Shown: positions 4,028 through 47,313 of the stretch, one piece after another | Layout: every line of letters starts with the position of its first letter | How positions within the stretch are numbered: the first letter of the stretch is position 1 | Source: Hoeflea sp. | GTDB taxonomy: Bacteria; Pseudomonadota; Alphaproteobacteria; Rhizobiales; Rhizobiaceae | NCBI RefSeq assembly: GCF_965204935.1 | Contig: NZ_CBDBFO010000002.1 | DNA length: 64,000 nt | Reading direction: 5' to 3' (one strand) | Program-made: the position numbers and the translations under genes | The notes under the pieces: model-generated | Seen by the model: the letters and a program-made list of their open reading frames with translations, nothing else | Databases searched by the model: none | What the model was told of the DNA's origin: nothing

Positions 4028-4099
4028 AGCGTGTCTGGCAACACCGTTGGGCAATCGCAACGGCAGCGGCGCAAAAGACACGTGTCCTATGCAGCCCCT

Positions 4100-4834: not shown

Positions 4835-5642
4835 AGCTTCTCCCGGTCCAGCACCGGCAGACGGTCGCGCGTCTCGTCGATGGTGGGAAGGCTCGCCACC
4901 AGACCGCGCGTATAGGGGTGTTTCGCATCAAGGAGCGCGCCGGAGGCGATCTCTTCGACAAACTCTCCGCGATACATCACCAGGATACGGTCGCACCAGC
5001 GTGCGACCATGTTGAGATCGTGCGAGATCAGGATCAGACCCATCATACGAGATCGGCGAGAATGTCGAGCACCTGGCCGCGCACCGAAACATCCAGCGCA
5101 CTTGTGGGTTCGTCCGCGATCATCAGGGTTGGCTCAAGCACCACCATCATTGCGATCATGGCCCTTTGGCCCATCCCGCCGGACACTTCGTGCGGAAAGA
5201 GGCGTGCGACGCGTTCCGGGTCCTTGATGCGTACGGCGGCAAGCGCTTCAAGCATCCGCTCGCGGCGCTCCCGCCTGCCGAGCGTCCCGTGCACAGCCAT
5301 GGCCTCTTCAATCTGCTCGCCGATCCTGATCACCGGGTTGAGGCTGAACTTCGGGTCCTGCAGCACCATCGACATGGCCGTGCCGCGCAGGTCGCGCATT
5401 GCATCTTCGGAAAGGTTGCGCAAATCCCTGCCGTCGAACGTCATCTGGTCGGCTGTTACCCGTCCCGGCGCGGGAACAAGGCCCATGATGGCCCGGCCCG
5501 TCATGCTTTTGCCGGATCCGCTTTCGCCGACAATCCCCAGCCTTTCGCGCCCCAGCGTAAAGCTCAAACCGCGCACGACTTCGACCGGCCCCTGATCTGA
5601 AGGAAACGTAACGCGCAGATTTTCCACTGAAAGAAGGCTCAT
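4831..5642 (-). pseudogene. ABC transporter ATP-binding protein, DppD/OppD type, split by a frameshift between the D-loop and the H-loop
   Basis: ORF 5043..5642 carries Walker A GESGSGKS, the signature VSGGMGQR, and Walker B plus D-loop ADEPTSALDVS. It stops at ...LDILADLV*. ORF 4831..5046, in another frame, continues as MGLILISHDL (H-loop). The linker is about 4 residues shorter than in the paralogue at 4100..4834. Confidence 0.7.
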
Positions 5643-24894: not shown

Positions 24895-27786
24895 ATGGCG
24901 TATCCAGAACGCAGCGTCGTGACGGTATTGGTCGTCGACGCTGTGAGCTCCACGAGCCGGATAGCCTCTGTCGATCCCGATGATTCACAACTCATGGTAG
25001 ATGACGTGCTCTCCCACATTCGCCAGTGTGTGGAGCGGGCGGGCGGCCTTTTGGTCAGCTTTGCGGGCGATGGCGGTGTTGCCGTTTTCGGCTGGCCGGA
25101 CTCGCTTGAAGATCACGCGGACAGGGCTTGCGAGGCTGCCTGGAACATTCAGCACTACGGCGGCGGCGACAGCCCCATTCTCGACCCGGAGAAGAACGAG
25201 GTCCTGTTTCGGGTCGGAATCCATTCCGGGCTCGTTGGATTGCGTCACCTCGAACTGGAGCGCGGCTCGCAGGTCGATCTTGTCGGCGGAACCGTTCACC
25301 TGGCCGCGCGCCTGGAGAAAAGCGCCCAGCCGGGCGAGATTTTGTTGAGCGCGGAGACCTTGGAACTGTGCCAACTGGCGGTCGAGCACAGTCCAAGGCC
25401 AGACCTCCAGATCCTCTCGGAGATCAATTCCAGCGTCTTTTGCCTGAGCGCACCGCCCAAACGGCATGCCACGAACGAGGCGATACAGGATTATGATTTT
25501 CCGATCGTCGGCCGCGACCAGGAACAGGCCATGCTGCGGGACGCATTGGCCCGTGTATCGCCGTCCAAGATCGCCTTCGCCATTGTCGGCGAGCCGGGCA
25601 TCGGCAAGAGCCGCCTCGCCGCTGCCGCCATCGAAGAGGCGCTGACGGAAGGCACCATCGACCGGCTCTTGGTTTATCGCGGTGATATTCAAAGGCGCAC
25701 CACGCCCTTTGCCGTTTTCAGGAGCCTCATACTCGACGCCCTTGACCTCGACGAGCAGGCGACGCAATCGCAAATCGAGGCCGCATTTTCAGACGCCGGC
25801 CTCGAGTCCACGGGCAACGGGGCTCTGGACGCGATCCTGATGTCCGACGGCCAGGGACGTTCAACGCGGACCGCGCCGAAGCTTTCCCTGAAACAGACAG
25901 CACAGGCACTGGTCGAGATTTTCGCGCGTCTGGCGTTGAAGGACCGCACCCTTTTGCTGCTCGAGGATCTACATCTGGTTGATCCGGAGAGCCAGCTGTG
26001 CCTGGAACTGCTTTGCGAAAACGACGATGACCGGCGGCTGATCCTGCTTTTGACGGGGCGTCCGGAAGCGGCATTCGACGCACAGCAGATTGCCGACACG
26101 GTGCTGCGCCTTGAACCGATGACGCGCGACCAGATGCGGGCACTGGCCCTCAAGCTGTGGACAAAGAACACCCCGGACAAACTCAACATCGAGAAGGCGC
26201 TGGACCAGGCTGACGGGATTCCCTTCGTGCTCGAACAGTGGGCCTGTTCGCTGGATCCGCAGGAGGCAGAGACATTCTCGTCGATACCGCAGGGTGTGCA
26301 GTCGATGAACCATGCGCGCCTTAACCGCCTGCCGCGCGCGGTCAAGCATTGCGCGCAGTCTCTGAGTATTCTGGGCGAGCAGGTCGAGCTGGACTTCGCG
26401 CGCAAGGTGCTTGGCGTGGATATGGAGGACTTGCTGGAGAGTCTCGACCGGCTCGAACAACTCGCCATAACCCGTGTCATGGCCGGACGGTCGGTGCGTT
26501 TCTGCCACGCGATCATCGCTGATGCCTGCCGCAACACCGTACCGCGCGCCCGGCGCCGGGACATACACCGCACCGCCATCGATGTGATCAATCAGACCTA
26601 CGCGGACCTTGGCGGCCAGTACGAGCGCCTGGCTTTTCACGCAGAAGCAGCGGGTGACGACCTGCAGGCACTTGAGTATCTGGTCAAGGCCGCCGACCGC
26701 GCCAAGAGGAACCATGCCGGCAAATCGCTTCAGCTTCTTTTCGACCGGGCCCTGGTATTGATTGACCGTATCGGTGAGCCGGCAGAGGAAATCTTTGTCG
26801 ACCTGACCATCATGGTGTGCACGACGATGCTGCAGCTCGGCGAATTCTCCAAGATGCACAGCCATCTTCCAAAGGTCCTGGCACTGTCTGAAAAGCAGCA
26901 GCGGAAAAGCCAGATCTGCGCCTCCAAGTGCAATCTCGGCATGGTCGACTGGTTCGAGGGACGATACGCAGACGGCATCATGATCGTCGAGGAAGCGCTG
27001 CAGATGGCAAAGGAGATGGACTCCTTGCCGCACATCTTCGCAGCACAACACCTGCTGTCGGTTTTGAACCACGCCATGGGCAACATGGAACAGGCGATGA
27101 CGCTTTCCCGTGATCTGTGTGGCCGGCTGTCCGGCGATCTGCAGGACTCACGGCTGGGCGCAGCCGGCATCCCCGGCGCCATATCGCGGGCCTTTCTGGG
27201 CTGGTTCCTCACCGACATGGGCGAATATGAAGAGAGCCTGGATTACGCGCAAACCGCTCTTGATATCTCACGGGCAAGCAATGATCCCTATACAGAAGTC
27301 ATCGCCCTCAACGCGCTTGGCAGGAATCTGATCATGATGGGTCGCACCGGCGACGCGGTGACCTGTCTTGAAACGACGATGGCGCTGATCGAAGAACACG
27401 GTTACGACGCACCGAAACCGCATATCACCGGTCTCCTGGCAACGGCGCTGACGCGCAGCGGCCGCGCCGCGGAGGCAATCGAGCTCGTCGATGAATGCTT
27501 CCAGAAATCCCTGCATCTGCGCACCGGGAGGCTGGAGATCTATTATCTCTATGCCGGCTATGCGGAGGCGCTCTACCACACGGGTGCCGTCGAGCGATGC
27601 CTACCTGCCATCGATCAGGCCATAGAAATCGGGCGCAGCATCAATAATCCCGGACTGCTCGTCCAGGGCCTCGCCCTGAGAGCCAAGCTGGCGACGGAAA
27701 TCAAGCCTGACAGCCCGCTTGTGCAGCAGGACATCGATGAGCATAGAAACCTGTGCGCAAGGCACGGCTTCAAGGTTCTGGTATAA
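24895..27786 (+). CDS. Class III adenylate/guanylate cyclase domain + AAA/STAND P-loop NTPase + TPR-like C-terminal repeats
   Basis: Cyclase metal ligands occur in VLVVDAVSST and FAGDGG. P-loop GEPGIGKS lies near 25590-25611. The helical repeat C-terminus is about 450 aa. The track start at 24886 is TTG; the first ATG is at 24895. Confidence 0.8.
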   Translation: MAYPERSVVTVLVVDAVSSTSRIASVDPDDSQLMVDDVLSHIRQCVERAGGLLVSFAGDGGVAVFGWPDSLEDHADRACEAAWNIQHYGGGDSPILDPEKNEVLFRVGIHSGLVGLRHLELERGSQVDLVGGTVHLAARLEKSAQPGEILLSAETLELCQLAVEHSPRPDLQILSEINSSVFCLSAPPKRHATNEAIQDYDFPIVGRDQEQAMLRDALARVSPSKIAFAIVGEPGIGKSRLAAAAIEEALTEGTIDRLLVYRGDIQRRTTPFAVFRSLILDALDLDEQATQSQIEAAFSDAGLESTGNGALDAILMSDGQGRSTRTAPKLSLKQTAQALVEIFARLALKDRTLLLLEDLHLVDPESQLCLELLCENDDDRRLILLLTGRPEAAFDAQQIADTVLRLEPMTRDQMRALALKLWTKNTPDKLNIEKALDQADGIPFVLEQWACSLDPQEAETFSSIPQGVQSMNHARLNRLPRAVKHCAQSLSILGEQVELDFARKVLGVDMEDLLESLDRLEQLAITRVMAGRSVRFCHAIIADACRNTVPRARRRDIHRTAIDVINQTYADLGGQYERLAFHAEAAGDDLQALEYLVKAADRAKRNHAGKSLQLLFDRALVLIDRIGEPAEEIFVDLTIMVCTTMLQLGEFSKMHSHLPKVLALSEKQQRKSQICASKCNLGMVDWFEGRYADGIMIVEEALQMAKEMDSLPHIFAAQHLLSVLNHAMGNMEQAMTLSRDLCGRLSGDLQDSRLGAAGIPGAISRAFLGWFLTDMGEYEESLDYAQTALDISRASNDPYTEVIALNALGRNLIMMGRTGDAVTCLETTMALIEEHGYDAPKPHITGLLATALTRSGRAAEAIELVDECFQKSLHLRTGRLEIYYLYAGYAEALYHTGAVERCLPAIDQAIEIGRSINNPGLLVQGLALRAKLATEIKPDSPLVQQDIDEHRNLCARHGFKVLV

Positions 27787-27804
27787 CGCGGCGCCCGATC
27801 TGCC

Positions 27805-30800
27805 CTATCGCGGCCTCAAAAGGTTGAAACGACCCGACAGGCCGGTGGCCGCCTTGGCGATCTCCTGCATCTCGCCGGCCTCACCCGCGACCTTGCGAAG
27901 CCCCTCCAGCCGGCCGGCAGCCAGCAGGCATCGCTCCAGAATGTAAAGTGCGATCGCATCGCGGCCCCAGCAGTGGCGCGCCCTGACGCGCCCTTCAACG
28001 CCCGGACCCGTGTCGTATGAGGCGTTGCCGAAGAGCAGATAGTCGTCAATCTCGCGGATCGGGTGCTCCTGCACAAAGGGGTAAAGCGAGAACCGGTAGG
28101 GATCGTCAAAGACGGCGGCGTCCAGATTGGCTGCGGGGATCAGCGCAGCAACCCATTCGCCGGCATCGAGGCGCCCGCCGCTCTCAAGTTCGGTGGCCTT
28201 GACGCAGCGGCGCATGAGCATGGCGAAATTGGGTTTCAGCCGCTCGGCCTCGTAGATCAGCTGCGTTGCCAGCGAGTATCCGCACTTGTCGGCACTGTCC
28301 GGTTCCAGTCCCTGTTTCCTGACGAGGTCGAACAGGCTCGGCAGGCTGATCCGGAACGTCATCAGCGTGTCCATGATGTTGCCGAAGGTGGACGGAATGG
28401 CCGCCATGGTCGATGCGATAAGCTCAAACAGGATGGCCGCCACGTCGGCATGGTACTGGGCGCTCGTATAGCCTTTGTACTCGCGCAGCTTCTGCTCCTC
28501 GACGGCGATAAAGGCGTCGAGCAGCGTGCGTGTCCTTGCCGGCCGGACCGACCAGGCATCACTGATGAGCCGGTTAAGGTGGTTCAGCAGTTCCGCTCCC
28601 GCCTGCTCTGACAGGTTCATCAGCGTCTTGTAGGACAGGACATTTCCGAACACGTCGCCAAGCGTCAGGATGGACCAGATCTGCATGGTTGCGAGGCCCG
28701 GGTCCCTGGGCATCTTGCCCTTTGAGACGCTCAGCCAGTCCGGATGGAGGTGCCCGACATGCTGGCGCGCGAACGGCAGCGCTATCCCAAGCTCGGTAAT
28801 CCATGCCGGGCCGGGTGTTCCGAAGAGATCCGACAGGACCGCGTAGGAAACATCGCTCGCCAGATCGCGAACCAGATCGATCCGGTGGCTGTCGCCGGTG
28901 CGTGCCAAAGCCATCTCGATGCGGTTCGACACGATATCGCCAAGACGGCTGTGCACGCCGCCGCCGCCCCTGTCGTCACGATGGGCCGCATCCAGCGCTT
29001 GCCAGGCATCGCCCAGGATCGAATAGAGCCGGGTGCGGCGCTCCCTGCTTGCAGCCGGAAACTGCGCCGTTCCAATCAGCATGTCATCGCCGCGCAGCAC
29101 ACGTCGTCCGGACAGGCTGTAGTGATCGACGGAGAACTGTTCCTGGCCTTGCTTGTCGACCAGCCTGAGGATGTCGGCGACATCGCGGTGCCTTCCGACA
29201 AAGCAGACAGGGCTGTCCAGCCCGTCCGGCTCGTGCAGCGTCGCGCCGTCATTATAGGGCGAACTGCCGGGAATATCCGGCAGTTTGGCCCGGATCAGCG
29301 ACACGTTCTTGTCCCTCAGGAAGCGGCCGACAAATCCGCGGATGCGTTTTTCGGTAAAAAGACCCGGCGTTTGCGGATCGGTCATGCTGTGTCCGTTCGC
29401 CAAGAGCTCGGACGTGTCGAGCTCGAACCGCTCATGCAGCGCCATGGCTTCGATCGCGTCCTGGCTGGGCGCGAAGAAATAGTCGCCGCCCCGCGTGATC
29501 ACGAAGCGCGGTATCCGGCTGACCGGCACCGCAGCGCCCGATTCAAGGAACCGGTCCCCGGTTTCACCCGTATTGGAGCCGGCGATCGGACAGCGGTTGA
29601 GGCCTGCCTGCCCCATGAACTCGCCGCCATTCATCCAGTCGGCCTGTATCACCTCGAACTGCAGGTCGATACGGGCATTGGCGGCAATGAAAAGCAGCCC
29701 GCGTTTTTTGCCGTCGCCACGCGAACTGTCGTCAAGAAGCGGGCCGCCATAACCGATGCCGCGGCGTAGCAAGCGATGGCGGCGCACATCATTGCGGCCA
29801 CCGATGTCACGCGGGTTGGTGCGGCGCACGTGTGAGCCGAGCGGGCACTTCGTTCCTTTCGGGTCGTCCCGCACGAAAAGGAAATCGTTGATCTTGCGAT
29901 CGCTTTCCGGCCCGATTGCTCGCGGTCCGTCCGGCGACAGGACCAGTGGCGTTCCGTTCTTCCAGCGCCCCATGAACTGCGCCGCCAGCTTCTCCTGCGC
30001 CCTTTCATCGTCCGGCCGCTGCTGCGCCAGGAAATCCCGGAAACCGACGACGTCCTGCTCCAGCTTTCTGAAGATGATGAAGGTCGCGCCGTCGCGCAGC
30101 AGCTTGTTGGCCGGCTGCCGGGCATGATTGCCGTCCTCGTCCGGAAATCCCAGATAGATTTCCCCGGGCGCCACCGGTGTCCATGTGCCGTTGGGCCCCG
30201 GCATTGCGCCGCCGGGCATCGGTTTTCCGAGTTTCATATCGACAAAGGGCTGGCTGATTCCGTCCCGGAACCCGAAATGCTCTTTCCTGTATCCGGATGT
30301 GACGGCTTTGCCGTCCTCGACCGAATAGGGATCCTGGCCAAGTTCGATATGCACGATTTCCATCCCCAAGAAGCGGAACAGGCCGCCGAGCATGGTGCGC
30401 AGTGCCTTTCCACGCGCGCCGTTGCGGTTGTTGAAATCATCGATATCGCGGCGCAACGCGTCCCAGCTGGCCTCCGGCCCCATGTCCCATTTCCCGTCGC
30501 CGATGACATCGCCGACCTGGAAACCGCCGGTGAAGTAGCCGTGCACTGAGCTCAGACCCAGCTCGCCGTCCCAGTTCTCCGGTGCGCTCGGGCCGTCATC
30601 GCCGAGCCGTTTCGCACGCGCCGCCATGCCCTGTTTGAACACATCCGGAAACGAGCGCAGCGTGTTCGCATCGACATCCAGTTTTTCCAGTCCGGGAAAC
30701 GTGAAGGCGACATTCACGGGCACCGGATCGAAGCTCTGCTTCTTTCGCTCGGCGCCGTATCCGTCCGCCTGCGCCCGCTCATTGCGCAAGGGCGATGCAC

Positions 30801-31590
30801 CGGCAGCGGAAGCGGCATCGCGCGCCAGTTTGGCCTGCCGCAACAATTCGTATGCGCAAAGCGCGACCAGCCGGTGAGAAACCACCTGGACACCGGCCTG
30901 CCCCGGATCGTCACCGAACGCGCTCAGGTCGAAAATACTGGCGACCGCCTTGCGGATTTTCGGATCGCGGCTCTTGAGGAACATGGCAAGGGCCAGGATC
31001 AGCGCCACGAGATCGCGTTCGTTTTCAAGGCCGCGGCTGAATGTCTTCTGTGCCCATTCAATGGCGCCGAAAACGCCACCGCCTTTTTTCAAGGCCGCCG
31101 AAAGCGTTTCAACAAGTTTGAGGATCTTGGGGCTTGGCGGTTTGTTGCCGCCGACCGCCAAAAAGCCGTCCAGCTGCTTGAGAAGCGCGCCGTGATCGCC
31201 TGTCGACAACAACTTCAGCCATGCCCGGAACGCGTCGCAGGCAAGGTTCTCGGCCAGCGGGTTTGCCGATGCTGACGTTTCGTCGGTTCCGTTTTCTTCA
31301 GTATCAGCCGCCGCGGATCGCGCGAGATGCGGCGATGCGAGCTCCGTTGCGTAGTCTGTCGTGCCGGACGTTTTCTTCTTCGGCGCGCTGGATGACAAAG
31401 CTTCCTTCGCCAGCTTTGCAAAGAGCAGCCGCGACGATTCCATCTCCGTCTTGCTCAAGATGCGGAAGAAGACGAACAGTGACCAGTTGCGGGTTTTGCC
31501 ATTGGCAAATTTCGACGGCTGGCCGAGATGCGCCTGGATTCTTGCGGCGGTGTCGGCGAGTTTGCTGTCGTCCATGATCCTATCGGACAT
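27805..31590 (-). CDS. Large fusion protein: DyP-type haem peroxidase domain (with a long N-terminal insertion) + C-terminal cytochrome-P450-like domain
   Basis: DyP motifs: NWSLFVFFRI, VNVAFTFPGL, FGFRDGISQP (Asp codon 30262-30264), PLGSHVRRTNPR (His codon 29830-29832), LLRRGIGYG and LLFIAANA..QFE.IQ. P450 motifs: YEAERL (ExxR, 28240-28251), DDPYRFS, and a Cys loop ...RARHCWGRD (Cys codon 27970-27972). GAGGAGG lies upstream of the ATG at 31590. Confidence 0.7.
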   Translation of the reverse strand: MSDRIMDDSKLADTAARIQAHLGQPSKFANGKTRNWSLFVFFRILSKTEMESSRLLFAKLAKEALSSSAPKKKTSGTTDYATELASPHLARSAAADTEENGTDETSASANPLAENLACDAFRAWLKLLSTGDHGALLKQLDGFLAVGGNKPPSPKILKLVETLSAALKKGGGVFGAIEWAQKTFSRGLENERDLVALILALAMFLKSRDPKIRKAVASIFDLSAFGDDPGQAGVQVVSHRLVALCAYELLRQAKLARDAASAAGASPLRNERAQADGYGAERKKQSFDPVPVNVAFTFPGLEKLDVDANTLRSFPDVFKQGMAARAKRLGDDGPSAPENWDGELGLSSVHGYFTGGFQVGDVIGDGKWDMGPEASWDALRRDIDDFNNRNGARGKALRTMLGGLFRFLGMEIVHIELGQDPYSVEDGKAVTSGYRKEHFGFRDGISQPFVDMKLGKPMPGGAMPGPNGTWTPVAPGEIYLGFPDEDGNHARQPANKLLRDGATFIIFRKLEQDVVGFRDFLAQQRPDDERAQEKLAAQFMGRWKNGTPLVLSPDGPRAIGPESDRKINDFLFVRDDPKGTKCPLGSHVRRTNPRDIGGRNDVRRHRLLRRGIGYGGPLLDDSSRGDGKKRGLLFIAANARIDLQFEVIQADWMNGGEFMGQAGLNRCPIAGSNTGETGDRFLESGAAVPVSRIPRFVITRGGDYFFAPSQDAIEAMALHERFELDTSELLANGHSMTDPQTPGLFTEKRIRGFVGRFLRDKNVSLIRAKLPDIPGSSPYNDGATLHEPDGLDSPVCFVGRHRDVADILRLVDKQGQEQFSVDHYSLSGRRVLRGDDMLIGTAQFPAASRERRTRLYSILGDAWQALDAAHRDDRGGGGVHSRLGDIVSNRIEMALARTGDSHRIDLVRDLASDVSYAVLSDLFGTPGPAWITELGIALPFARQHVGHLHPDWLSVSKGKMPRDPGLATMQIWSILTLGDVFGNVLSYKTLMNLSEQAGAELLNHLNRLISDAWSVRPARTRTLLDAFIAVEEQKLREYKGYTSAQYHADVAAILFELIASTMAAIPSTFGNIMDTLMTFRISLPSLFDLVRKQGLEPDSADKCGYSLATQLIYEAERLKPNFAMLMRRCVKATELESGGRLDAGEWVAALIPAANLDAAVFDDPYRFSLYPFVQEHPIREIDDYLLFGNASYDTGPGVEGRVRARHCWGRDAIALYILERCLLAAGRLEGLRKVAGEAGEMQEIAKAATGLSGRFNLLRPR

Positions 31591-31592
31591 TC

Positions 31593-32426
31593 TCAAACCT
31601 CCTCGTCGCTTTTCATGCGGTAGGTTCCGCCAGGGGTCGGGAAATCCGACGCGTATTGACCGGTCTCGCGCAGAAACTCGTCAAAGAGTTCATCCATGTT
31701 TTCCACCTTCCGGCCGGTCGGCGAACGCACCTTCTCCACGAAAGCGTCAAAGCAAAGCTTGAAGTCCTCGAGCTGTTTGATGCGCGCGACCGTTAGATCC
31801 GGATAGGCGCACAGGAACAGATCGACCGGCACCTGGTAGCGGCGGATCCACTGCCAGAACTTTTCAAAGTCCCGGGTCGAGGGAAAATCGACGCAATTGA
31901 CGAAGACGTCATCGAAATCGCGCGCCAGGAATTGCGCGATGTCCCTGAAATAGACCTTCAGGTCGCCGTCGAACGAGACGATCGTCAGCAGCCAGGAATG
32001 GAAACCGGGTGCCGGGGCAGCGGCGGCATTGCCCGTTGCGCCGGCATCAACCGGATTGCTGTCCGCGCCGACCACGCTGATCTCGAATTCGTCCATCGGC
32101 CTGGGGATGCTGAATTGGCCCTGCGGCCCCGGTGATGAACCGCCGGAATCATAATAGGCGACGTCGCTTGCGCTGGAATTTGTCAGATATTGCTCCGGTC
32201 GGATGATCATCATGCGTCCGAAATGAATGCTGGAGATCGTGTTCAGCTGATGCGGAATTCCCCGGTCCGCGCGGTTCGCGATCGATTCGATCACACGCCG
32301 AAGTTTTTCCTCGTAGGTCAGTCTCTCGCCGGGTGCGCGACCCAGGATGATGGGCGCCATGACGGCAATCTCGGTAACGCCGCCCATGGTCGCGGACATC
32401 GACCAGTTCAACAGCTCGCGTTCCAT
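31593..32426 (-). CDS. Hypothetical protein (277 aa) tightly coupled to the DyP-P450 gene
   Basis: GGGGAGA lies upstream of the ATG at 32426 (MERELLNW...). The stop is 2 nt before the downstream ATG, and the RBS of the next gene lies inside its last codons. No recognised catalytic motif. Conserved-looking stretches: SIHFGRMMII and WLLTIVSFDGDLKVYFRDIAQFL. Confidence 0.6.
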   Translation of the reverse strand: MERELLNWSMSATMGGVTEIAVMAPIILGRAPGERLTYEEKLRRVIESIANRADRGIPHQLNTISSIHFGRMMIIRPEQYLTNSSASDVAYYDSGGSSPGPQGQFSIPRPMDEFEISVVGADSNPVDAGATGNAAAAPAPGFHSWLLTIVSFDGDLKVYFRDIAQFLARDFDDVFVNCVDFPSTRDFEKFWQWIRRYQVPVDLFLCAYPDLTVARIKQLEDFKLCFDAFVEKVRSPTGRKVENMDELFDEFLRETGQYASDFPTPGGTYRMKSDEEV

Positions 32427-32515
32427 AACATCTCCCCTCGAAATTGAGCGGCCGCGGCCAGACAACCTTGTGTGTTGTCGATAGCCGCCTAAGCCGACCC
32501 GCGAAAGCGGTCACA

Positions 32516-34174
32516 TTATTCGTTCGTTATACTCTGAAAGGTCTCCGTCAAAGCCGCAAGTGCGGGATCGCCCGACAATCGCACCGCCCGCACAAGCGGT
32601 CCCGAAACGGCAATTCTCCGGCTCTCTCCGTGACCCGTTGTGCCGCTCCACTGCGCCCGGATATGGGCAAGCCGCAATGCGAGATTGGCAATCTCCGGGC
32701 CGAACCGCGACCAGTCGAAGGTTTCATCGGACGGCTTGAGCTGAGTCGCCTCATAAACAAGGCGCTTGATGTCGGCATGGCCGCTCGCCGGCTGATTTTC
32801 GTCCTCGCAGCTATCCGGGATTTCGGCCGGGTTGAGACGCAGCAGCGCCTCGGCATCAATGATACCTGCGCCCATGCGGCCTTTGTTCCAGCCGGTCGGA
32901 ACCCGCGCCGTGTGGCTAATCGCGCTGCGGAACAGTTCCTGCAGCGGCATGCCGCGTCGTTTGGCTTCGGCGATCAGGTTGTCGCGGCCGTGCCGGTTGA
33001 GCCAGAGCGCTGCAATGCCCGAAACCAGGGCCGCTGAATAGGATGTGCCCTGTCCTTCCGCGATGGTTGGCCGGCTGCCGTCGCGGACGTCGTGCTTGGC
33101 GCGCCACACCATCTCAGCCGGTGCGGCGATGTCGACCGTCGATCCGGCGCAACTGCCACGCCACTTGCGGTCGTTGACATTGGTTCCGCCGACCGCGATC
33201 ACTTCGCTGTAACGGGCGGGATAGACGGCAAGACCGATACAGTTTCCGGCGGCGGCGACGACGATGAGGTTGGCATCGACCGCTCTCTGGATCGCCTTGC
33301 GCAGAGCCTCGCTTCCAAGGCCGCCAAGGCTCATCGATATGATGTGACATCCCGAAAGCCGGGCATGGTTGACGGCGCGTGCAATGGGCGCCGGGTTCAC
33401 GACGCGCACATCGTGGACACAGCGAATGGGGACGAGATGCGCCCCGGGTGCTGCGCCGCTGATTTCGCCCGACCGGCGACCGATCGTCACACTGGCAATG
33501 CCGCTCCCATGGCCAGGGCTGGCGGTCTCGGGATCCAGCGGGTCCGTCGGATCGCCATCGCCTTCGAGAATATTCGCCGCGAGGTCCAGCCGCAGGCTGT
33601 CTGTTTCGATTTCGTCATGATCGGCAATGCCCGTATCCGGCTGGGCGATGAAGACGCCCTTGCCCCGGTCCGGCGACAAATGCCACGCCGCCATGACGCG
33701 GGTGTTTTCGAGCGCCCATTTCTTGTCGGCGGGTGCTGGTCCGTTGACCCAGCAAAGGCTGCCCGCGACCGCGGCGCTCTCGGATGTGGCTTCGGGCGGC
33801 TCAGGCACGGTCATGATGTGCTCGCCGATACACGGCTCGCACGACACCAGGTCCAGCTTGTCACGCAACTCATAGGCGATCGCGAACAAAGCATCCGATG
33901 CACGCCCGGTCGGAACTCCGGGAAATCGCAGGACGACGAAATGCGCCAGTTCGTCGGCACAGCGCGGAAAGAGCGGCTCGAGCGCAAAATCGAGCGTATC
34001 AAGGACGCCGGCGACTTCCCTGCGCGCCAGGCTGAAGTCGGGTCTTGCCCGATACTGAAGGACAAAGCCCAGTTCATCGGCAGGCAGCGCGTTGCGATAG
34101 GGTTCGCTGATCGCGATGTTGCGGCTGACCTCTGGTCTGACCAACAGGTGGTTGAGTGTCCTAATCGGCGTCAT
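32516..34174 (-). CDS. S8-family (subtilisin-like) serine peptidase with no signal peptide and with N- and C-terminal extensions
   Basis: Catalytic triad contexts QPDTGI (Asp), PGHGSGIASV (His) and GTSYSAALVSG (Ser). Oxyanion Asn in VVAAAGN. About 170 aa precede the catalytic domain and about 130 aa follow it. Confidence 0.85.
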   Translation of the reverse strand: MTPIRTLNHLLVRPEVSRNIAISEPYRNALPADELGFVLQYRARPDFSLARREVAGVLDTLDFALEPLFPRCADELAHFVVLRFPGVPTGRASDALFAIAYELRDKLDLVSCEPCIGEHIMTVPEPPEATSESAAVAGSLCWVNGPAPADKKWALENTRVMAAWHLSPDRGKGVFIAQPDTGIADHDEIETDSLRLDLAANILEGDGDPTDPLDPETASPGHGSGIASVTIGRRSGEISGAAPGAHLVPIRCVHDVRVVNPAPIARAVNHARLSGCHIISMSLGGLGSEALRKAIQRAVDANLIVVAAAGNCIGLAVYPARYSEVIAVGGTNVNDRKWRGSCAGSTVDIAAPAEMVWRAKHDVRDGSRPTIAEGQGTSYSAALVSGIAALWLNRHGRDNLIAEAKRRGMPLQELFRSAISHTARVPTGWNKGRMGAGIIDAEALLRLNPAEIPDSCEDENQPASGHADIKRLVYEATQLKPSDETFDWSRFGPEIANLALRLAHIRAQWSGTTGHGESRRIAVSGPLVRAVRLSGDPALAALTETFQSITNE

Positions 34175-34272
34175 CAAAGCTTCCGGCTACCTGTCTTTTG
34201 TACATTCGGGCCGGCCTTTGGCAGGGACCGGCGCCAACAGGTCGAGCTATTGCATAACCGGGCAAGCGCAGA

Positions 34273-34288
34273 TGTGAGATAACTCACA
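34273..34288. promoter_or_regulatory. Perfect CRP-type box TGTGA-GATAAC-TCACA in the divergent promoter region between the S8 operon and the crp-like gene
   Basis: The palindrome extends to aTGTGAG-ATAA-CTCACAt (34272-34289). Two further TCACA half-sites lie at 34290-34294 and 34299-34303. Confidence 0.55.
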
Positions 34289-34402
34289 TTCACACGGATC
34301 ACATACGCAGGGTTGCAATTGTGTCAGCTGCAGAAAAACTTGCTGCAAGCCCCATATAATGGCGCTAGTCTTAACGCAGTGATTGGCCCAGGGGTGGGGT
34401 TG

Positions 34403-35095
34403 ATGAAGTCGGGCGCGAAAAATCTGTTGTATCTTGTCGATCTGCTGGCGGATCTCGAGGTCGGCCAACTGAACGACATTGGCGAGACCTGTGAGTGGAT
34501 CCGCGTCTCGAAGGGCCAGGAGGTCATCAGCCAGAATCAGCAGACAACCGACGCCTATTTTATCGTCGAGGGCAGCGTCGCCGCCAAGGGCTACTCCGTC
34601 GACGGCAAGGAAGTTACCTACGCAGAGATTTCGGCCGGCCAGGTTTTCGGCGAATTCTCGGCGATCGACAAGCGGCCCCGATCGGCCGCCGTGGAGGCGC
34701 TTGAGGACAGCTACCTCGCCCGAATGGACTCCGACCAGTTTCGCGCCCTGATCGCGGACTACCCGGTCCTTGGTTTGAAGCTCGCCGAACTTCTGGTTCG
34801 CAAGAACCGGAGCCTGACGGACCGGATGTTCGAATACAGCACCATGGCGGTTCACCAGCGCATCTGCACGGAGCTGTTGCGCATGGTCGACGCCAGCGAT
34901 GGCGGCGATACGTTCCTTATCGAGCCGGCGCCGTCGCACTACCAGATCGCAACGAAGCTCAGCACACACCGCGAAGCGGTCAGCAAGGAACTGGCGCGGC
35001 TGTCGAAGCTCGGCATTGTCAATTCCGGCCGCCGCAAGATCGAAGTGCTCGACGTCGAGCGACTGCGCCAGCTGGCGCAATCGGGCATCTACTAG
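34403..35095 (+). CDS. Crp/Fnr-family transcriptional regulator (cNMP-binding domain + HTH)
   Basis: cNMP-binding signature GQVFGEFSAIDKRPRSAAVEA. C-terminal HTH YQIATKLSTHREAVSKELARLSKLGIV. Start chosen at the ATG at 34403 (MKSGAKNLLY); the track start at 34313 is TTG. Confidence 0.85.
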   Translation: MKSGAKNLLYLVDLLADLEVGQLNDIGETCEWIRVSKGQEVISQNQQTTDAYFIVEGSVAAKGYSVDGKEVTYAEISAGQVFGEFSAIDKRPRSAAVEALEDSYLARMDSDQFRALIADYPVLGLKLAELLVRKNRSLTDRMFEYSTMAVHQRICTELLRMVDASDGGDTFLIEPAPSHYQIATKLSTHREAVSKELARLSKLGIVNSGRRKIEVLDVERLRQLAQSGIY

Positions 35096-35569
35096 AGCAG
35101 AATTGCATCCCTGATTATCGCATCCGGCGGAGCCGCAATGACTAAAACTCTGCCGTTTGTGGGATTCCCCACATCCTGAACACCGGATATCGGACAATCT
35201 CGACCTGCATCGTGATGGGGGGATTCCGGACCGTTATCTCAGCCTGTCTTGCGGGCCCAAACGCAAGCGGCGGATAGCGGTCTGGAGACCTGATGCCCAT
35301 GCCGGGTTCCGCCCACCCGCGACCCGCGTTAGTCGACTCCCAAGCTCCCCTGTCCCTGCGATACTCCAGTCTTGCACGGACAGGGGCCGCCTGGCGTGCC
35401 GGCAATAGCTAATCCGGCGCGCCGGGCGGGTTCAATAGAGGCCGGGTCACTTCAAGTATTGCGCCGGAATCCGGCAAACAATATTTCTTCATCAAGGAAC
35501 AAACCGCCACAATTGCGCTATAGTTTCCCAAAAGGTGTCAAACGAGACTCTTTCCCAAGGAGCGTATTG

Positions 35570-46131: not shown

Positions 46132-47313
46132 ATGGCCGCGCCCGTTCCCGTCATGGATGACATCTCGATTGCCACGCTGACGGCGGATCCCTATCCGAGC
46201 TTTCGCCGCATGCGCGAGGCGGCCTCGGTCGTCTGGGTCAGCGATGCACGCATCAATCTCGTCACCCGGTTCGAGGACATCATGACCGTCGAGCGCGACC
46301 ACGGGCGCTTTGCCTCGACCAATCCCGGCTCCCTGATGAACAAGGTCATGGGCCACTCACTGATGCGCAAGGATGACGAGGCGCACCAGGTGGAGCGCAA
46401 GGCGATCGAACCGTCCTTCAGGCCCGGGGTCGTCAAGAACCATTGGACACCGGTTTTCGACCGGATCGCCGATCAATTGATCGACAGCTTCGCGGATGAT
46501 GGCGAAGCGGATCTGTTCGACCGTTTCGCCGCGCCGATGGCCTCGCTTTGCCTCTGCGAGATGATCGGCTTCAAGGACGTCGCCTGGCAGGACCTCGCCG
46601 CCTGGTCACAGGCGCTGATGGATGGCGTCAGCAATTATGGCACCGATCCGCAGACCGCGCACCGGGCCGCCGCCGCGTCGGACGCCATAGACGCAGCCAT
46701 CGACGCGGTGCTCGACGATTACCGGGACAAGCCGGAGGCGACCATCCTGTCGTCAATGCTGCATGCCGAAAGCCCCCATTCGCTGGAACAGATACGCGCC
46801 AATATCAAGGTCATCATCGGCGGCGGCCTCAACGAACCGCGCGACTCCATTCTGACCACCGTCTACGGACTTCTGCTCAACCCGGAACAGCGCGCCCGCG
46901 TCGAGGCCGATCCGACGCTTTACCGCACGGCCTTCGAGGAGGCCGTGCGCTGGGTGTCGCCCATCGGCATGTATCCGCGCCGCGTCACCTGTGACACGGT
47001 GCTCGGCGACACGCAGCTCAAGGAGGGCGATCAGCTCGGTATCTGCGTCGGCGCGGCCAACCGGGACGAGACCCGGTTTTCCGATCCGGACGCCTACGAC
47101 ATATTCCGCGAACGCAGCTCGCATCTCGGATTTGGTGCCGGGCCGCACTTTTGCGCCGGGACCTGGGTGGCGCGCCAGATGGTCGGCGAGATTGCGGTTC
47201 CGAAGCTGTTTAGCCGGCTGTCAAAGCTGCGCCTTGACGACAACAGGCCGGCGATCATGAAGGGCTGGGTGTTTCGCGGGCCGGTCTCCCTGCCGGTACG
47301 CTGGGAGATCTGA
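46132..47313 (+). CDS. Cytochrome P450
   Basis: Canonical haem loop FGAGPHFCAG, EEAVRW (ExxR) and a bacterial class I size of 393 aa. Confidence 0.9.
   Translation: MAAPVPVMDDISIATLTADPYPSFRRMREAASVVWVSDARINLVTRFEDIMTVERDHGRFASTNPGSLMNKVMGHSLMRKDDEAHQVERKAIEPSFRPGVVKNHWTPVFDRIADQLIDSFADDGEADLFDRFAAPMASLCLCEMIGFKDVAWQDLAAWSQALMDGVSNYGTDPQTAHRAAAASDAIDAAIDAVLDDYRDKPEATILSSMLHAESPHSLEQIRANIKVIIGGGLNEPRDSILTTVYGLLLNPEQRARVEADPTLYRTAFEEAVRWVSPIGMYPRRVTCDTVLGDTQLKEGDQLGICVGAANRDETRFSDPDAYDIFRERSSHLGFGAGPHFCAGTWVARQMVGEIAVPKLFSRLSKLRLDDNRPAIMKGWVFRGPVSLPVRWEI

What the first reader, a model, noticed from the sequence alone, without database searches (positions are those of the whole stretch)
24895..35095. 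Candidate self-contained cyclic-nucleotide-regulated module: cyclase-STAND protein, Crp-like sensor, CRP box and a protease / unknown / double-haem-enzyme operon
Seen in sequence:
- A class III cyclase-AAA-TPR gene on the plus strand ends 18 nt from the stop of a minus-strand operon.
- The operon order is S8 peptidase, an 89-bp gap, the 277-aa unknown, a 2-bp gap, then the DyP::P450 fusion.
- 228 bp upstream of the operon, a Crp/Fnr-family gene with a cNMP-binding domain is transcribed divergently.
- The shared region holds a perfect TGTGA-N6-TCACA palindrome.
- None of the three operon products has a signal peptide.

Established knowledge: Crp-family dimers bind such palindromes when loaded with cAMP or cGMP. 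STAND/TPR cyclases act as signal-integrating switches.

Inference: source, sensor, operator and output of a cNMP circuit are all encoded within 10 kb. The output, an intracellular subtilase plus a two-haem fusion enzyme, does not match any system I can name.
Basis: partly seen in the sequence, partly recalled or inferred. Interest (0 to 1): 0.7.

Follow-up and report, generated by a model that had tools for sequence, protein, structure and literature searches.

The report
Cyclase switch guarding a two-haem enzyme
A sensor protein that probably makes a cyclic-nucleotide signal always sits beside an uncharacterised two-haem enzyme and its small partner protein in soil and marine alphaproteobacteria, often together with a cyclic-nucleotide-sensing regulator, its DNA site and a protease, which points to a dedicated and so far undescribed control circuit.

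Summary
Comparison with other genomes supports the linkage but changes which genes are core.

- **Core.** The core is three genes: the 277-aa unknown, then the DyP::P450 fusion, then the cyclase-AAA-TPR gene pointing back at it. The fusion followed the unknown in 70 of 70 testable loci. The cyclase followed the fusion in 46 of 46. Flanking genes differ from locus to locus.
- **Accessory genes.** The Crp-like gene is nearby in 13 of 28 loci with enough flanking DNA. An S8 protease is nearby in about a quarter of loci, and almost only where Crp is.
- **Operator.** The perfect TGTGA-N6-TCACA box is the only one in 64 kb (0.07 expected). It is conserved, spacer included, in two relatives. This box type is the most enriched palindrome upstream of the unknown-fusion operon elsewhere (14 of 56 regions against 0.3 expected).
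- **Caveats.** The cyclase keeps both metal-binding aspartates in 43 of 43 orthologues, but its other catalytic residues are non-canonical. Its activity and product are therefore unproven. The enzyme's substrate is unknown.

No paper on this module or on a DyP-P450 fusion was found. I rate it a new variant of a local cNMP-Crp circuit, with interest about 0.6.

The parts
24895..27786 (+). STAND-type signalling protein. It has an N-terminal class III nucleotidyl-cyclase homology domain (about residues 9-169), an AAA_16 NTPase with Walker A GEPGIGKSR, and a C-terminal TPR sensor region. It converges on the fusion gene.
   Evidence: Pfam hits are. NCBIfam gives a partial match to the TOMM kinase/cyclase fusion and to LipJ. 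The domain aligns to solved cyclases including 1ybt. Residue conservation was tabulated in 43 orthologues. The gene is adjacent to the fusion in 46 of 46 loci.
27805..31590 (-). Two-haem fusion enzyme. The N-terminal half is a class V (C/D-type) DyP peroxidase that starts near residue 19 and carries an insertion of about 240 aa. The C-terminal half, about 520 aa, is a divergent cytochrome P450 fold. No redox-partner gene is nearby.
   Evidence: Domain hits are. More than 258 full-length homologues were found. The FGFRDG motif, His589, the RR pair, ExxR and the Cys1209-W-G segment are invariant. The DyP part matches PDB DyPs at E 1.6e-68 and the P450 part at about 1e-8. The AlphaFold and Foldseek results confirm the P450 fold. 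No recurrent partner other than the core genes was found.
31593..32426 (-). 277-aa protein of an unannotated family, always immediately upstream of the fusion. It is probably translationally coupled to it (2-bp gap). Distant relatives precede stand-alone DyPs in other phyla.
   Evidence: It has no Pfam or NCBIfam hit. More than 458 homologues exist, and every source-given name is 'hypothetical protein' or 'uncharacterized protein'. It is followed by the fusion in 70 of 70 loci. An HMM of the family hits the ORF just upstream of stand-alone DyPs in most of the 32 (of 71) DyP loci that carry a relative. The AlphaFold model has pLDDT 64, and the best Foldseek hits, all non-significant, are mostly ferredoxin-like alpha+beta barrels.
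32427..32515 (-). 89-bp spacer between S8 and the unknown gene. It holds a short imperfect hairpin directly after the S8 stop, with no T-run after it. It also holds a 2-mismatch CRP-like site (32500-32515) and a GGGGAG ribosome-binding site.
   Evidence: The sequence was read. The 2-mismatch box is listed. No terminator-like site was called here.
32516..34174 (-). Cytoplasmic-looking S8 subtilase. The Asp (DTG), His (GHGSG) and Ser (GTSYS) motifs are intact, and the catalytic core is flanked by uncharacterised N- and C-terminal regions. It is an accessory gene that travels with crp.
   Evidence: Pfam gives 107.5 bits. The best NCBIfam matches, all below cut-off, are mycosin, QhpE and PatA/PatG-type processing proteases. 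The triad motifs were read. The gene recurs near the core in 10 loci, plus L158 and L159, almost always with Crp.
34273..34288 (.). Perfect CRP-type operator TGTGAGATAACTCACA, with 7+7 arms at 34272-34289. It lies in the divergent S8/crp promoter region. Its centre is about 106 bp upstream of the S8 ATG and about 122 bp upstream of the crp ATG.
   Evidence: It is unique in 64 kb against 0.07 expected. It is identical in L001 and has one mismatch in L158, spacer conserved, and it is the longest conserved block of the intergenic alignment.
34403..35095 (+). Crp/Fnr-family regulator with a cNMP-binding domain (FGEFS...RSAA) and the recognition helix THREAVSKEL. It is transcribed divergently from S8.
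   Evidence: Pfam hits are. The best solved relatives are Crp-family regulators; I know the top entries to be GlxR (4byy, 3r6s) and M. tuberculosis Crp (3h3u, 3d0s). The cassette is conserved in all 18 locus-linked orthologues and the HREAV(S/T)(K/R)E helix in 16 of them.
35158..35173 (.). Possible second, weaker CRP-like palindrome TGTGGGATTCCCCACA (2 mismatches). It lies between the crp stop and an 805-aa secreted-looking ORF.
   Evidence: It is listed. An analogous 1-mismatch box sits just downstream of crp in L001. It was not tested further.

Best explanation
This is a conserved alphaproteobacterial control-plus-enzyme module.

**Shown**
- A STAND protein (class III cyclase domain, AAA_16 NTPase, TPR) is genetically locked to a two-gene operon. 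That operon encodes an unannotated 277-aa protein and a DyP::P450 two-haem fusion.
- About half of the loci, including this window, also carry a dedicated Crp-subfamily regulator.
- About a quarter also carry an S8 protease, usually divergent from crp.
- CRP-type TGTGA-N6-TCACA boxes lie in the S8/crp promoter region, upstream of crp-cyclase operons, and upstream of the unknown-fusion operon.

**Inferred mechanism**
1. A ligand or protein bound by the TPR region, together with nucleotide binding at the NTPase, drives oligomerisation.
2. Oligomerisation brings cyclase domains into head-to-tail dimers, which make a cyclic nucleotide. That is probably cAMP, but specificity is uncertain because the purine-selecting lysine is replaced.
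3. The cNMP-loaded Crp dimer binds the box at 34273-34288 and changes transcription of S8-unknown-fusion on one side and crp on the other.
4. In lineages without a neighbouring crp, a Crp paralogue encoded elsewhere would read the boxes.

**Inferred output**
- The output is a cytoplasmic haem enzyme pair with no redox partner. It therefore probably runs on peroxide, or passes an oxidised intermediate from one haem domain to the other.
- It would be assisted by the ancient DyP partner protein. The substrate is unknown.
- The S8 protease is a second, separable cNMP-controlled output.
For: **Linkage**
- The fusion follows the unknown in 70 of 70 loci, and the cyclase follows the fusion in 46 of 46.
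- Five of six cyclase orthologues sampled independently show the same layout.
- The flanks differ everywhere, and no other neighbour recurs across lineages.
- Pairwise divergence of cyclase and fusion correlates at r = 0.94, and at 0.84 for pairs below 70% identity.

**Operator**
- The box is unique in the window.
- It is conserved, spacer included, in L001 and L158.
- In 56 non-redundant upstream regions, 14 carry a box with one mismatch or fewer. Shuffles give 0.30 +/- 0.53, with a maximum of 3.
- It is the top-ranked pattern among all 5-mer palindromes with spacers of 4 to 8.
- Perfect or 1-mismatch boxes lie upstream of crp or crp-cyclase in L009, L122, L128 and L148.
- Boxes lie between S8 and crp in L158 and L159.

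**Receptor**
- The cNMP cassette and a GlxR-like RE..V.K helix are conserved.

**Source**
- Both metal aspartates, Arg109 and the GDG motif are kept in 43 of 43 orthologues. Walker A is invariant.
- The Asn-to-His substitution is shared with the solved cyclase domain of Rv1900c/LipJ (alignment to 1ybt).

**Output**
- The haem-ligand motifs of both halves are invariant.
- The P450 fold is confirmed.
Against: - No experiment bears on any step.
- **Cyclase chemistry.** The position of the adenine-selecting lysine is never Lys (H, S, N or D). The transition-state arginine position is Arg in only the window and L001, and is Lys, Ala, Gly, Gln, Val or Thr elsewhere. Cyclase activity could therefore be weak, altered or lost.
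- **Boxes.** Roughly half of the loci have neither a neighbouring crp nor a recognisable box within 300 bp of the unknown gene.
- **This window.** The box is upstream of S8, not of the unknown gene, and a hairpin follows the S8 stop. Read-through into the unknown-fusion pair is therefore assumed.
- **L158.** It keeps the cyclase, S8 and Crp without the enzyme. The Crp box may thus serve S8 and crp rather than the enzyme.
- **Promoter.** No sigma-70-like promoter was found in the intergenic region.
Confidence: 0.55

Rival explanations
1. The link is post-translational rather than transcriptional. The STAND-cyclase senses the enzyme's substrate or product, or binds the unknown protein or the fusion's inserted region through its TPRs. 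Its cNMP, or simply its oligomeric state, then acts on the enzyme or on distant targets. Under this view the Crp, box and S8 unit is a separate add-on.
For: - The cyclase is universal beside the enzyme, while Crp and the box are not.
- The cyclase gene is almost always convergent with the fusion gene and often overlaps its 3' end. That layout is typical of a separately expressed partner.
- L158 shows that Crp, S8 and the cyclase can function without the enzyme.
Against: - CRP-type boxes are strongly enriched directly upstream of the unknown-fusion operon, even in loci that have no crp nearby.
- No cNMP-binding domain was detected in the fusion or the unknown protein.
Confidence: 0.2
2. The cyclase homology domain is catalytically degenerate. 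The protein would then be a STAND scaffold or regulator that uses the domain only for dimerisation or nucleotide binding. The Crp box would respond to cNMP made by other cyclases.
For: - The lysine position is never Lys.
- The transition-state Asn is His in 39 of 43 orthologues.
- The transition-state Arg position is not conserved.
Against: - Both metal-binding aspartates, the GDG motif, Arg109 and the surrounding glycines are invariant in 43 orthologues at about 51% mean pairwise identity. That is hard to explain without selection on the active site.
- The same His substitution occurs in Rv1900c. From my own knowledge, not checked in a paper here, Rv1900c is an active though slow adenylyl cyclase.
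- One lineage has duplicated the cyclase domain in tandem (L157).
Confidence: 0.15
3. It is an anti-phage or conflict system of the Pycsar or Avs kind. A STAND sensor would make a cyclic nucleotide that switches on toxic effectors, here the protease and the haem enzyme.
For: - The protein has a STAND NTPase with TPRs plus a cyclase domain.
- There are weak PADLOC matches to PycC (E 2e-5) and of the Crp cNMP-binding domain to Pycsar effector models.
- The module sits in a different genomic context in each lineage.
Against: - The PADLOC hits are at domain level only. No model matches the fusion or the unknown protein.
- The neighbours are housekeeping genes rather than defence islands or mobile elements.
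- The cNMP receptor is a DNA-binding Crp with a conserved operator, not an effector fusion.
- The components co-diverge smoothly across orders.
Confidence: 0.04
4. The adjacency is inherited synteny or chance, with no functional meaning. The palindrome is a chance occurrence.
For: A single perfect box appears in 7 of 100 shuffles of the 64-kb window.
Against: - Linkage is kept at 36-48% protein identity across Hyphomicrobiales, Rhodospirillales, Caulobacterales and Sphingomonadales, while every flank differs.
- The box falls in a 228-bp intergenic stretch. From the rate, the chance of that is about 2.5e-4.
- The box is conserved with its spacer.
- It is the top de novo palindrome in independent lineages.
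Confidence: 0.02

Closest known systems
Sinorhizobium meliloti CyaD1/CyaD2/CyaK - Clr - smc02178 cAMP cascade (PMC5498481, PMC4222275)
   Same: - It is an alphaproteobacterial local circuit.
- A class III cyclase gene, a Crp-family cNMP receptor gene and a target gene of unknown biochemical function lie close together.
- A palindromic box in the target promoter is bound by the cNMP-loaded regulator.
   Different: - Those cyclases are membrane receptors with a CHASE2 domain, not cytoplasmic STAND NTPases.
- The Clr box is TGTT-N8-AACA (relaxed HGTYHCNNNNGRWACA), not TGTGA-N6-TCACA.
- The target proteins are predicted to be extracytoplasmic, with no predicted enzymatic function. They are not a two-haem enzyme and a subtilase.
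- Clr is a global regulator fed by many cyclases.
Multidomain cyclase-ATPase(-TPR/HTH) proteins: the NCBIfam 'TOMM system kinase/cyclase fusion protein' TIGR03903, and the mycobacterial Rv0386-type cyclases (the latter from my own knowledge)
   Same: - The cyclase, AAA_16 and TPR order is the same.
- The window protein aligns to positions 289-1212 of the 1267-position TIGR03903 model at E 1e-45.
- Both are linked to a specialised enzyme cluster.
   Different: - The score (156 bits) is far below the family cut-off (705.75).
- There is no kinase domain and no HTH.
- The partners here are a DyP::P450 fusion and an unannotated protein, not a TOMM cluster.
MalT / LAL-type STAND transcription activators
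   Same: - The logic is the same: a ligand-sensing TPR or SUPR region plus an NTPase oligomerisation switch.
- The gene lies next to the operon it controls. A TPR_MalT match is seen, below cut-off.
   Different: - The output domain is a nucleotide cyclase instead of a DNA-binding HTH.
- DNA binding is delegated to a separate Crp protein through a diffusible messenger.
Fungal linoleate diol synthases / Ppo enzymes (haem peroxidase-P450 fusions; PMC4420034)
   Same: - An N-terminal haem peroxidase-type domain is fused to a C-terminal P450.
- It works without a redox partner.
- That review also reports regulation through a protein kinase A-mediated pathway.
   Different: - The peroxidase half there belongs to the peroxidase-cyclooxygenase superfamily, not to DyP. 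The fusions are independent inventions.
- The substrate here is unknown.
- The parallel is one of working principle only, not of membership.
Class V (C/D-type) dye-decolorizing peroxidases, for example PDB 8re3, 7anv, 4g2c, 5c2i
   Same: - The profile matches these structures at E 1.6e-68 to about 4e-33.
- The GXXDG motif, the proximal His and the RR pair are invariant.
   Different: - It carries an insertion of about 240 aa after the first beta-strand.
- It has a C-terminal P450 domain.
- It has an obligatory upstream partner gene and an obligatory STAND-cyclase neighbour.

Membership tests
Class III nucleotidyl cyclase | Cyclase homology domain detected above the curated threshold | tested here: met
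   PF00211 scores 52.2 bits against a cut-off of 21.9. The domain aligns to solved cyclases 2w01, 6aoa and 1ybt.
Class III nucleotidyl cyclase | Two metal-binding aspartates | tested here: met
   D18 and D62 are present in 43 of 43 orthologues.
Class III nucleotidyl cyclase | Substrate-selecting pair: Lys/Asp for ATP, or Glu plus Cys/Ser/Gly for GTP | tested here: not met
   The Lys position is Ser in the window and H, S, N or D across orthologues. The Asp position (D131) is kept in 35 of 43. Specificity cannot be read from the sequence.
Class III nucleotidyl cyclase | Transition-state Asn and Arg | tested here: inconclusive
   The Asn position is His in 39 of 43 orthologues, as in Rv1900c (1ybt alignment). 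The Arg is present in the window and L001 but is K, A, G, Q, V or T elsewhere.
Class III nucleotidyl cyclase | Synthesis of a 3',5'-cyclic nucleotide | not testable with these tools
   This needs an enzyme assay.
STAND NTPase | AAA_16/NB-ARC-like NTPase with a Walker A motif, followed by a repeat sensor region | tested here: met
   AAA_16 scores 57.3 against 32.6 and TPR_12 scores 71.9 against 30.1. GEPGIGKSR is invariant.
Crp/Fnr transcription factor, cNMP-responsive CRP type | cNMP-binding domain plus a C-terminal Crp-type HTH | tested here: met
   PF00027 scores 69.7 and PF13545 scores 50.7, both above cut-off.
Crp/Fnr transcription factor, cNMP-responsive CRP type | Phosphate-binding cassette (G-E ... 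R-S/T-A) and a recognition helix R-E-x-x-x-K/R | tested here: met
   The window has FGEFS..PRSAA and HREAVSK. These align with the FGELS..PRTS and SRETVNK segments of PDB 4byy, which I know to be GlxR. Both are conserved in locus-linked orthologues.
Crp/Fnr transcription factor, cNMP-responsive CRP type | cNMP-dependent binding to the box | not testable with these tools
   This needs EMSA or ITC.
CRP operator | TGTGA-N6-TCACA palindrome in a promoter region, conserved in orthologous loci | tested here: met
   
DyP-type peroxidase | DyP fold signature and family-level score | tested here: met
   PF21105 scores 36 against 27.5. The profile matches solved DyPs at E 1.6e-68. TIGR01413 alone is below cut-off, 76 against 100.5.
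DyP-type peroxidase | GXXDG distal Asp, proximal His, distal Arg | tested here: met
   FGFRDG (D445), H589 in SHVRRTNPRD, and R611/R612 are invariant in 18 diverse homologues. I assigned the roles from the published motif, not from a structure superposition.
Cytochrome P450 | Pfam family score | tested here: not met
   PF00067 scores 17.1 bits against a cut-off of 22.8 for the window protein. Some homologues do carry the precomputed hit.
Cytochrome P450 | P450 fold | tested here: met
   The AlphaFold model has pLDDT 85 and pTM 0.88. Foldseek gives 1640 matches at E <= 0.001. All 50 listed are P450s, the best being 3buj at E 4e-13 with a target TM-score of 0.70.
Cytochrome P450 | ExxR in the K-helix and a Cys ligand in an FxxGxRxCxG-like loop | tested here: met
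   E1116, R1119 and C1209-W-G are invariant and R1212 nearly so. The loop carries an insertion and is modelled with low confidence.
Cytochrome P450 | I-helix acid-alcohol pair (A/G)Gx(D/E)T(T/S) of O2-activating monooxygenases | tested here: inconclusive
   It is not recognisable by eye in the predicted I-helix consensus LLLELxGxxMAxIPxxFG. No structural alignment was made.
Subtilase (S8) | Family score and the Asp/His/Ser triad motifs | tested here: met
   PF00082 scores 107.5 bits. The DTG, GHGSG and GTSYS motifs were read.
Pycsar anti-phage system | PycC cyclase plus an effector in which a cNMP-binding domain is fused to a toxic module | tested here: not met
   Only weak domain-level PADLOC hits were found. 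The cNMP-binding protein is a DNA-binding Crp. No model matches the fusion or the unknown protein.
TOMM system kinase/cyclase fusion (TIGR03903) | Score above the equivalog cut-off, and an N-terminal kinase domain | tested here: not met
   The score is 156 bits against a cut-off of 705.75. Only model positions 289-1212 are matched, and there is no kinase domain.

The most novel reading that the evidence does not exclude
The DyP::P450 fusion and its ancient partner protein could form a bacterial peroxide- or lipid-hydroperoxide-transforming pathway. That would be an oxylipin-like signal or detoxification route, working like the fungal peroxidase-P450 Ppo/LDS enzymes. It would be switched on by its own cytoplasmic STAND-cyclase, which turns an intracellular cue into a cNMP pulse read by a dedicated Crp.

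If so, this would be a self-contained second-messenger circuit for a new class of two-haem enzyme, and a first physiological role for a STAND-type bacterial cyclase.

Hints, none of them statistically established:
- There is no redox partner.
- An independent reversed-order P450...DyP fusion lies next to the same crp in Hoeflea sp. TYP-13.
- An animal-haem-peroxidase gene lies directly upstream of the unknown gene in one lineage.
- Patatin, GDSL lipase, fatty-acid desaturase and fatty-acid hydratase genes abut the core in several loci.
Probability: 0.12. Interest if true: 0.8.

Novelty: new variant of a known kind. Interest (0 to 1): 0.62.

Why it matters
- **An entry point for orphan cyclases.** Bacteria, and alphaproteobacteria in particular, encode dozens of orphan class III cyclases whose signals and targets are unknown. 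Here one cyclase clade is tied to a defined output, a defined receptor subfamily and a defined operator. That makes source, receptor, operator and output all testable in a single 10-kb fragment.
- **STAND proteins signalling by messenger.** It would show that STAND NTPases can signal through a diffusible messenger rather than through a fused DNA-binding or effector domain.
- **A widespread uncharacterised enzyme.** The output is a two-haem DyP::P450 enzyme found in hundreds of soil and marine sequences, for which no paper was found. It always comes with a partner protein that also accompanies stand-alone DyPs in actinobacteria, Nitrospira and acidobacteria. Solving its chemistry could give a physiological role to a whole DyP subfamily, whose natural substrates are, to my knowledge, still largely unknown.

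Tried and rejected
- **Defence system.** PADLOC gave only generic domain hits, and the neighbourhoods are housekeeping genes. Rejected.
- **Is the 277-aa protein a copy of part of the fusion?** The hhalign probability is 0.3%. Rejected.
- **Fold of the 277-aa protein.** The model is mediocre (pLDDT 64), and Foldseek against PDB gave nothing with E below 0.24. Most of the top hits are ferredoxin-like alpha+beta barrels, which is a lead and not a result.
- **Promoter and terminator scan.** No promoter-like site in the S8/crp intergenic region and nothing above shuffle expectation. Uninformative for an alphaproteobacterium.
- **Look-up of the window's own fusion protein.** It is not on record, so the source genome could not be read. 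The closest named relatives are Hoeflea poritis and Nitratireductor sp. XY-223, at 81-82% identity.
- **Separate P450 genes beside stand-alone DyPs.** None was found. Only three further DyP-P450-like fusions turned up, in Nitrospira and Solirubrobacterales, and they lack the cyclase.
- **Other recurrent neighbours, such as a ferredoxin, reductase or phosphodiesterase.** None was found across lineages.
- **Literature.** Searches for a DyP-P450 fusion or this module found only the fungal LDS analogue. The Rv1900c residue roles could not be confirmed from a held paper.
- **Extra TCACA half-sites at 34290 and 34299.** They are not conserved in L001 or L158, so I do not count them as part of the operator.

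Full report
**1. Observation**

- The cyclase-AAA-TPR gene runs 24895-27786 (+), within an ORF that opens at a TTG at 24886.
- It ends 18 nt from the stop codon of the minus-strand fusion gene, 27805-31590.
- The 277-aa gene (31593-32426) ends 2 bp before the fusion's ATG.
- S8 (32516-34174) lies 89 bp upstream of that gene.
- The Crp-like gene (34403-35095) is divergent, 228 bp from the S8 start.

Pfam confirms Guanylate_cyc, AAA_16, TPR_12, Peptidase_S8, cNMP_binding with HTH_Crp_2, and DyP_N, all above their cut-offs.

The P450 half falls below the Pfam cut-off on its own sequence (17.1 against 22.8 bits). Three other results establish it:
- A profile of 18 homologues hits solved P450s at E about 2e-8.
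- ExxR (E1116, R1119) and the C1209-W-G segment are invariant.
- An AlphaFold model of the last 523 residues has pLDDT 85 and pTM 0.88. It gives 1640 Foldseek matches at E <= 0.001, and all 50 listed are P450s.

The DyP half keeps FGFRDG, His589 in SHVRRTNPRD, and the RR pair. It is closest to class V (C/D-type) DyPs, at E 1.6e-68. By eye, the DyP begins near residue 19 and carries an insertion of about 240 aa, so there is no separate N-terminal domain.

The palindrome TGTGAGATAACTCACA lies at 34273-34288, with 7+7 arms. It is the only exact match in 64 kb, against 0.07 expected, and the only match with one mismatch or fewer. I checked the absence of signal peptides only by reading the N-termini.

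**2. What travels together**

I sampled loci from three directions.
- The fusion was searched against one genome per species. This gave L001-L009 with full-length fusions; L010-L080 are mostly stand-alone DyPs.
- The 277-aa family was searched against metagenome contigs, giving L084-L156.
- Individual fusion or cyclase homologues were looked up on their contigs.

The results were as follows.
- Every locus of the 277-aa family with at least 700 bp downstream has the fusion next (70 of 70).
- Every complete fusion with at least 700 bp downstream has the cyclase-STAND gene next (46 of 46). It is convergent in all but one (L008).
- Of six cyclase orthologues chosen without regard to the fusion (43-61% identity), five have the fusion and the 277-aa gene beside them.
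- The flanks are different housekeeping genes in every lineage. In L082 the module sits inside a cobalamin cluster. In L160 it sits next to ribosomal protein genes.
- The window's own flanks match no other locus, not even Hoeflea sp. TYP-13.
- Pairwise identities of cyclase and fusion correlate at r = 0.94, and at 0.84 for pairs below 70% identity. The genes have therefore been inherited as a unit, not recruited repeatedly.

The core is three genes, not five.

**3. The accessory Crp, box and S8 unit**

- A Crp-like gene lies within the fetched flanks in 13 of the 28 loci that have at least 1.5 kb on both sides. I counted this from the table, and some of those loci are near-duplicates. It is also present in four of the six cyclase-side loci.
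- The 18 locus-linked Crp proteins form a recognisable subfamily. All 18 keep the G-E...R-S/T cassette, and 16 keep the helix HREAV(S/T)(K/R)E.
- The window protein's best solved relatives are Crp-family regulators. I know the top entries to be GlxR (4byy, 3r6s) and M. tuberculosis Crp (3h3u, 3d0s). From my own knowledge, these read TGTGA-N6-TCACA.
- S8 genes occur near the core in the window, L001, L008, L082, L137, L122, L106, L148, L102 and L140, and also in L158 and L159.
- Excluding L140, which is too short to judge, ten of the other eleven S8-carrying loci also have Crp; L102 is the exception.
- The usual layout is S8 and crp divergent, with a CRP box between them. This holds in the window, L001, L158, L159, L122 and L148.
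- L158 is instructive. Its cyclase is 61% identical to the window's, its S8 65% and its Crp 78%, in the window's arrangement with a 1-mismatch box, but the 277-aa gene and the fusion are absent.

S8 is therefore tied to the cNMP branch, not to the enzyme.

**4. The operator**

- Aligning the S8/crp intergenic regions of the window, L001 and L158 shows that AATGTG(A/G)GATAACTCACAA is the longest conserved block, spacer included.
- I took the 300 bp upstream of the 277-aa gene in 56 non-redundant loci. A box with one mismatch or fewer is present in 14 of them, where shuffles give 0.30 +/- 0.53 with a maximum of 3.
- A box with two mismatches or fewer is present in 25, against 4.7 +/- 2.1.
- An unbiased enumeration of all 5-mer inverted repeats with spacers of 4 to 8 ranks TGTGA-N6 first, at 14 regions against 0.33. 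Its shifted versions come next.
- Perfect or near-perfect boxes also precede crp or crp-cyclase operons in L009, L122, L128 and L148. That would give feedback.
- About half of the loci show no such box within 300 bp.

**5. The cyclase**

Across 43 orthologues the following are invariant: D18, D62, the GDG motif, Arg109, and the Walker A motif GEPGIGKSR. Other catalytic positions are non-canonical.
- The position of the adenine-selecting lysine is H, S, N or D, never K.
- Asp131 is kept in 35 of 43.
- The transition-state Asn is His in 39 of 43. The same substitution is seen in the alignment to the Rv1900c/LipJ cyclase domain, 1ybt.
- The transition-state Arg is present in the window and L001 but is K, A, G, Q, V or T elsewhere.

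Selection on the metal site argues for catalysis. The rest leaves the rate and product open.

**6. The 277-aa protein**

- It has more than 458 homologues. Every name a source gives is 'hypothetical protein' or 'uncharacterized protein', and none has a Pfam or NCBIfam family.
- An HMM of the family finds distant relatives of about 200 aa in 32 of the 71 loci L010-L080. In most of these the relative lies directly upstream of the DyP gene (Streptomyces, other actinobacteria, Nitrospira, acidobacteria), and some loci have two copies in tandem.
- The DyP-plus-partner pair is therefore older than the fusion and than the link to the cyclase.
- Its model is mediocre (pLDDT 64). The best structural matches, all non-significant, are mostly ferredoxin-like alpha+beta barrels.

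**7. Mechanism and rivals**

The best-supported reading is a STAND-cyclase, then cNMP, then Crp, then box circuit. It would control S8 and the unknown-fusion operon, with crp autoregulated. I put this at about 0.55.

Only the linkage, the operator statistics and the motif conservation are shown. Every activity and the sign of regulation are inferred.

The main rivals are:
- a post-translational link between the STAND protein and the enzyme (about 0.2);
- a degenerate cyclase domain (about 0.15);
- a defence-system reading, poorly supported;
- chance or inherited synteny, excluded.

**8. Comparison with known systems**

- The closest described system is the S. meliloti CyaD1/Clr/smc02178 cascade (PMC5498481). 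It is also a local cyclase, Crp-like regulator and target arrangement, but it has membrane CHASE2 cyclases, a TGTT-N8-AACA box, and target proteins with no predicted enzymatic function.
- Architecturally the sensor resembles the cyclase-AAA-TPR part of the TIGR03903 'TOMM kinase/cyclase' proteins, though far below that family's cut-off.
- Functionally it resembles a MalT-type STAND activator whose DNA-binding step has been delegated to Crp.
- The output enzyme works, at most, like the fungal peroxidase-P450 fusions (PMC4420034), and it is not related to their peroxidase half.
- Searches found no paper on a DyP-P450 fusion or on this module.

**9. Verdict**

I rate it a new variant of a known kind of circuit, with an uncharacterised and widespread output enzyme. 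Interest is about 0.6.

Noticed in passing
window 35158-35173 and 35372-37789: A second, weaker palindrome, TGTGGGATTCCCCACA (2 mismatches), lies just after the crp stop. It is upstream of an 805-aa ORF with no Pfam or NCBIfam hit. That ORF has a signal-peptide-like N-terminus, a poly-Gln run, and a Tyr/Gly/Pro-rich then Arg-rich C-terminus. It may be a further Crp target. It is not found in any other fetched locus.
   Followed up: partly
window 32427-32515: The S8-to-unknown spacer starts with a short imperfect hairpin (GACCGC-TTTC-GCGGGTC) that has no T-run after it. The hairpin overlaps a 2-mismatch CRP-like site at 32500-32515. It could be an attenuator, an RNA-stability element or a vestigial box.
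   Followed up: no
L001 1-6470 (Hoeflea sp. TYP-13), beyond crp: On the crp strand lie a 658-aa TPR protein and an ORF of at least 1251 aa. That ORF has a P450 domain at its N-terminus and, from about residue 1023, a DyP domain homologous to the window's (hhalign 97%). This is a second two-haem fusion with the domain order reversed. A 1-mismatch box, TGTGGGAATTCTCACA, lies at 6357 upstream of it. Two independent fusions argue that DyP and P450 work together.
   Followed up: partly
L158 8001-13748 (MAG, Pseudomonadota): This is a natural deletion variant. The cyclase-STAND gene, S8, the box and crp are in the window's arrangement, but the 277-aa gene and the fusion are absent.
   Followed up: yes
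L010-L080, just upstream of the DyP gene: Distant homologues of the 277-aa protein, about 200 aa long and without a Pfam family, occur in 32 of 71 DyP loci from actinobacteria, Nitrospira, acidobacteria and others. In most they lie directly upstream of the DyP gene, and L059, L017, L011 and L016 each carry two copies (adjacent in L059 and L017). This is an unannotated, ancient DyP partner family.
   Followed up: partly
L144 1596-4169, L131 2904-5471, L121/L124 about 3473-6113: An 855-857-aa animal-haem-peroxidase-superfamily protein (PF03098, E 1e-94) lies directly upstream of the 277-aa gene in L144 and L131, and about 4 kb upstream in L121 and L124. The contigs belong to one related lineage. 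It adds a third haem protein to the locus.
   Followed up: partly
L083 16609-17601; L157 6239-7810; L161 11079-12011 and 2529-3341; L162 14658-15875; two further patatin and two further GDSL hits in set A5: Lipid-handling genes abut the core in several unrelated loci. They include a fatty-acid desaturase, an MCRA fatty-acid hydratase, a GDSL lipase, an enoyl-CoA hydratase and a patatin. This may hint at a lipid-derived substrate, but the numbers are too small for a test.
   Followed up: partly
L157 8001-11600: One clade of orthologous cyclases, about 1190-1200 aa long, carries two cyclase homology domains in tandem ahead of the NTPase. In this contig the fusion and the 277-aa gene appear broken by frameshifts, which may be assembly errors.
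   Followed up: partly
3' ends of the cyclase and fusion genes: window 27787-27804; L082, L083, L159-L162: The convergent arrangement is nearly universal (45 of 46). In several loci the two coding regions overlap by 4 to 92 bp, and no terminator-like hairpin lies between them in the window. Transcriptional interference or antisense effects between regulator and target are conceivable.
   Followed up: no
L159 49-7060 (Allosphingosinicella MAG): Beside the S8-box-crp unit lies a bacteriocin- or RiPP-like set. It has three tandem ORFs of 56-60 aa, an Asn-synthase-like gene, an HlyD/AprE-type adaptor and a C39-peptidase ABC exporter. The S8 here is only 375 aa and was not matched by the window's S8 in tblastn at E <= 1e-3.
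   Followed up: no
window 34290-34304: Two extra TCACA half-sites follow the box in direct repeat (TCACAC, then TCACAT). They are not conserved in L001 or L158.
   Followed up: yes
window 46132-47313 and 50874-54245: Elsewhere in the window are an ordinary stand-alone cytochrome P450 (PF00067, E 6e-18) and a DnaE-type DNA polymerase III alpha homologue. They are part of an otherwise ordinary chromosomal context of sulfatases, TctA/TctC and TRAP transporters, a chemoreceptor and an MMPL protein.
   Followed up: no
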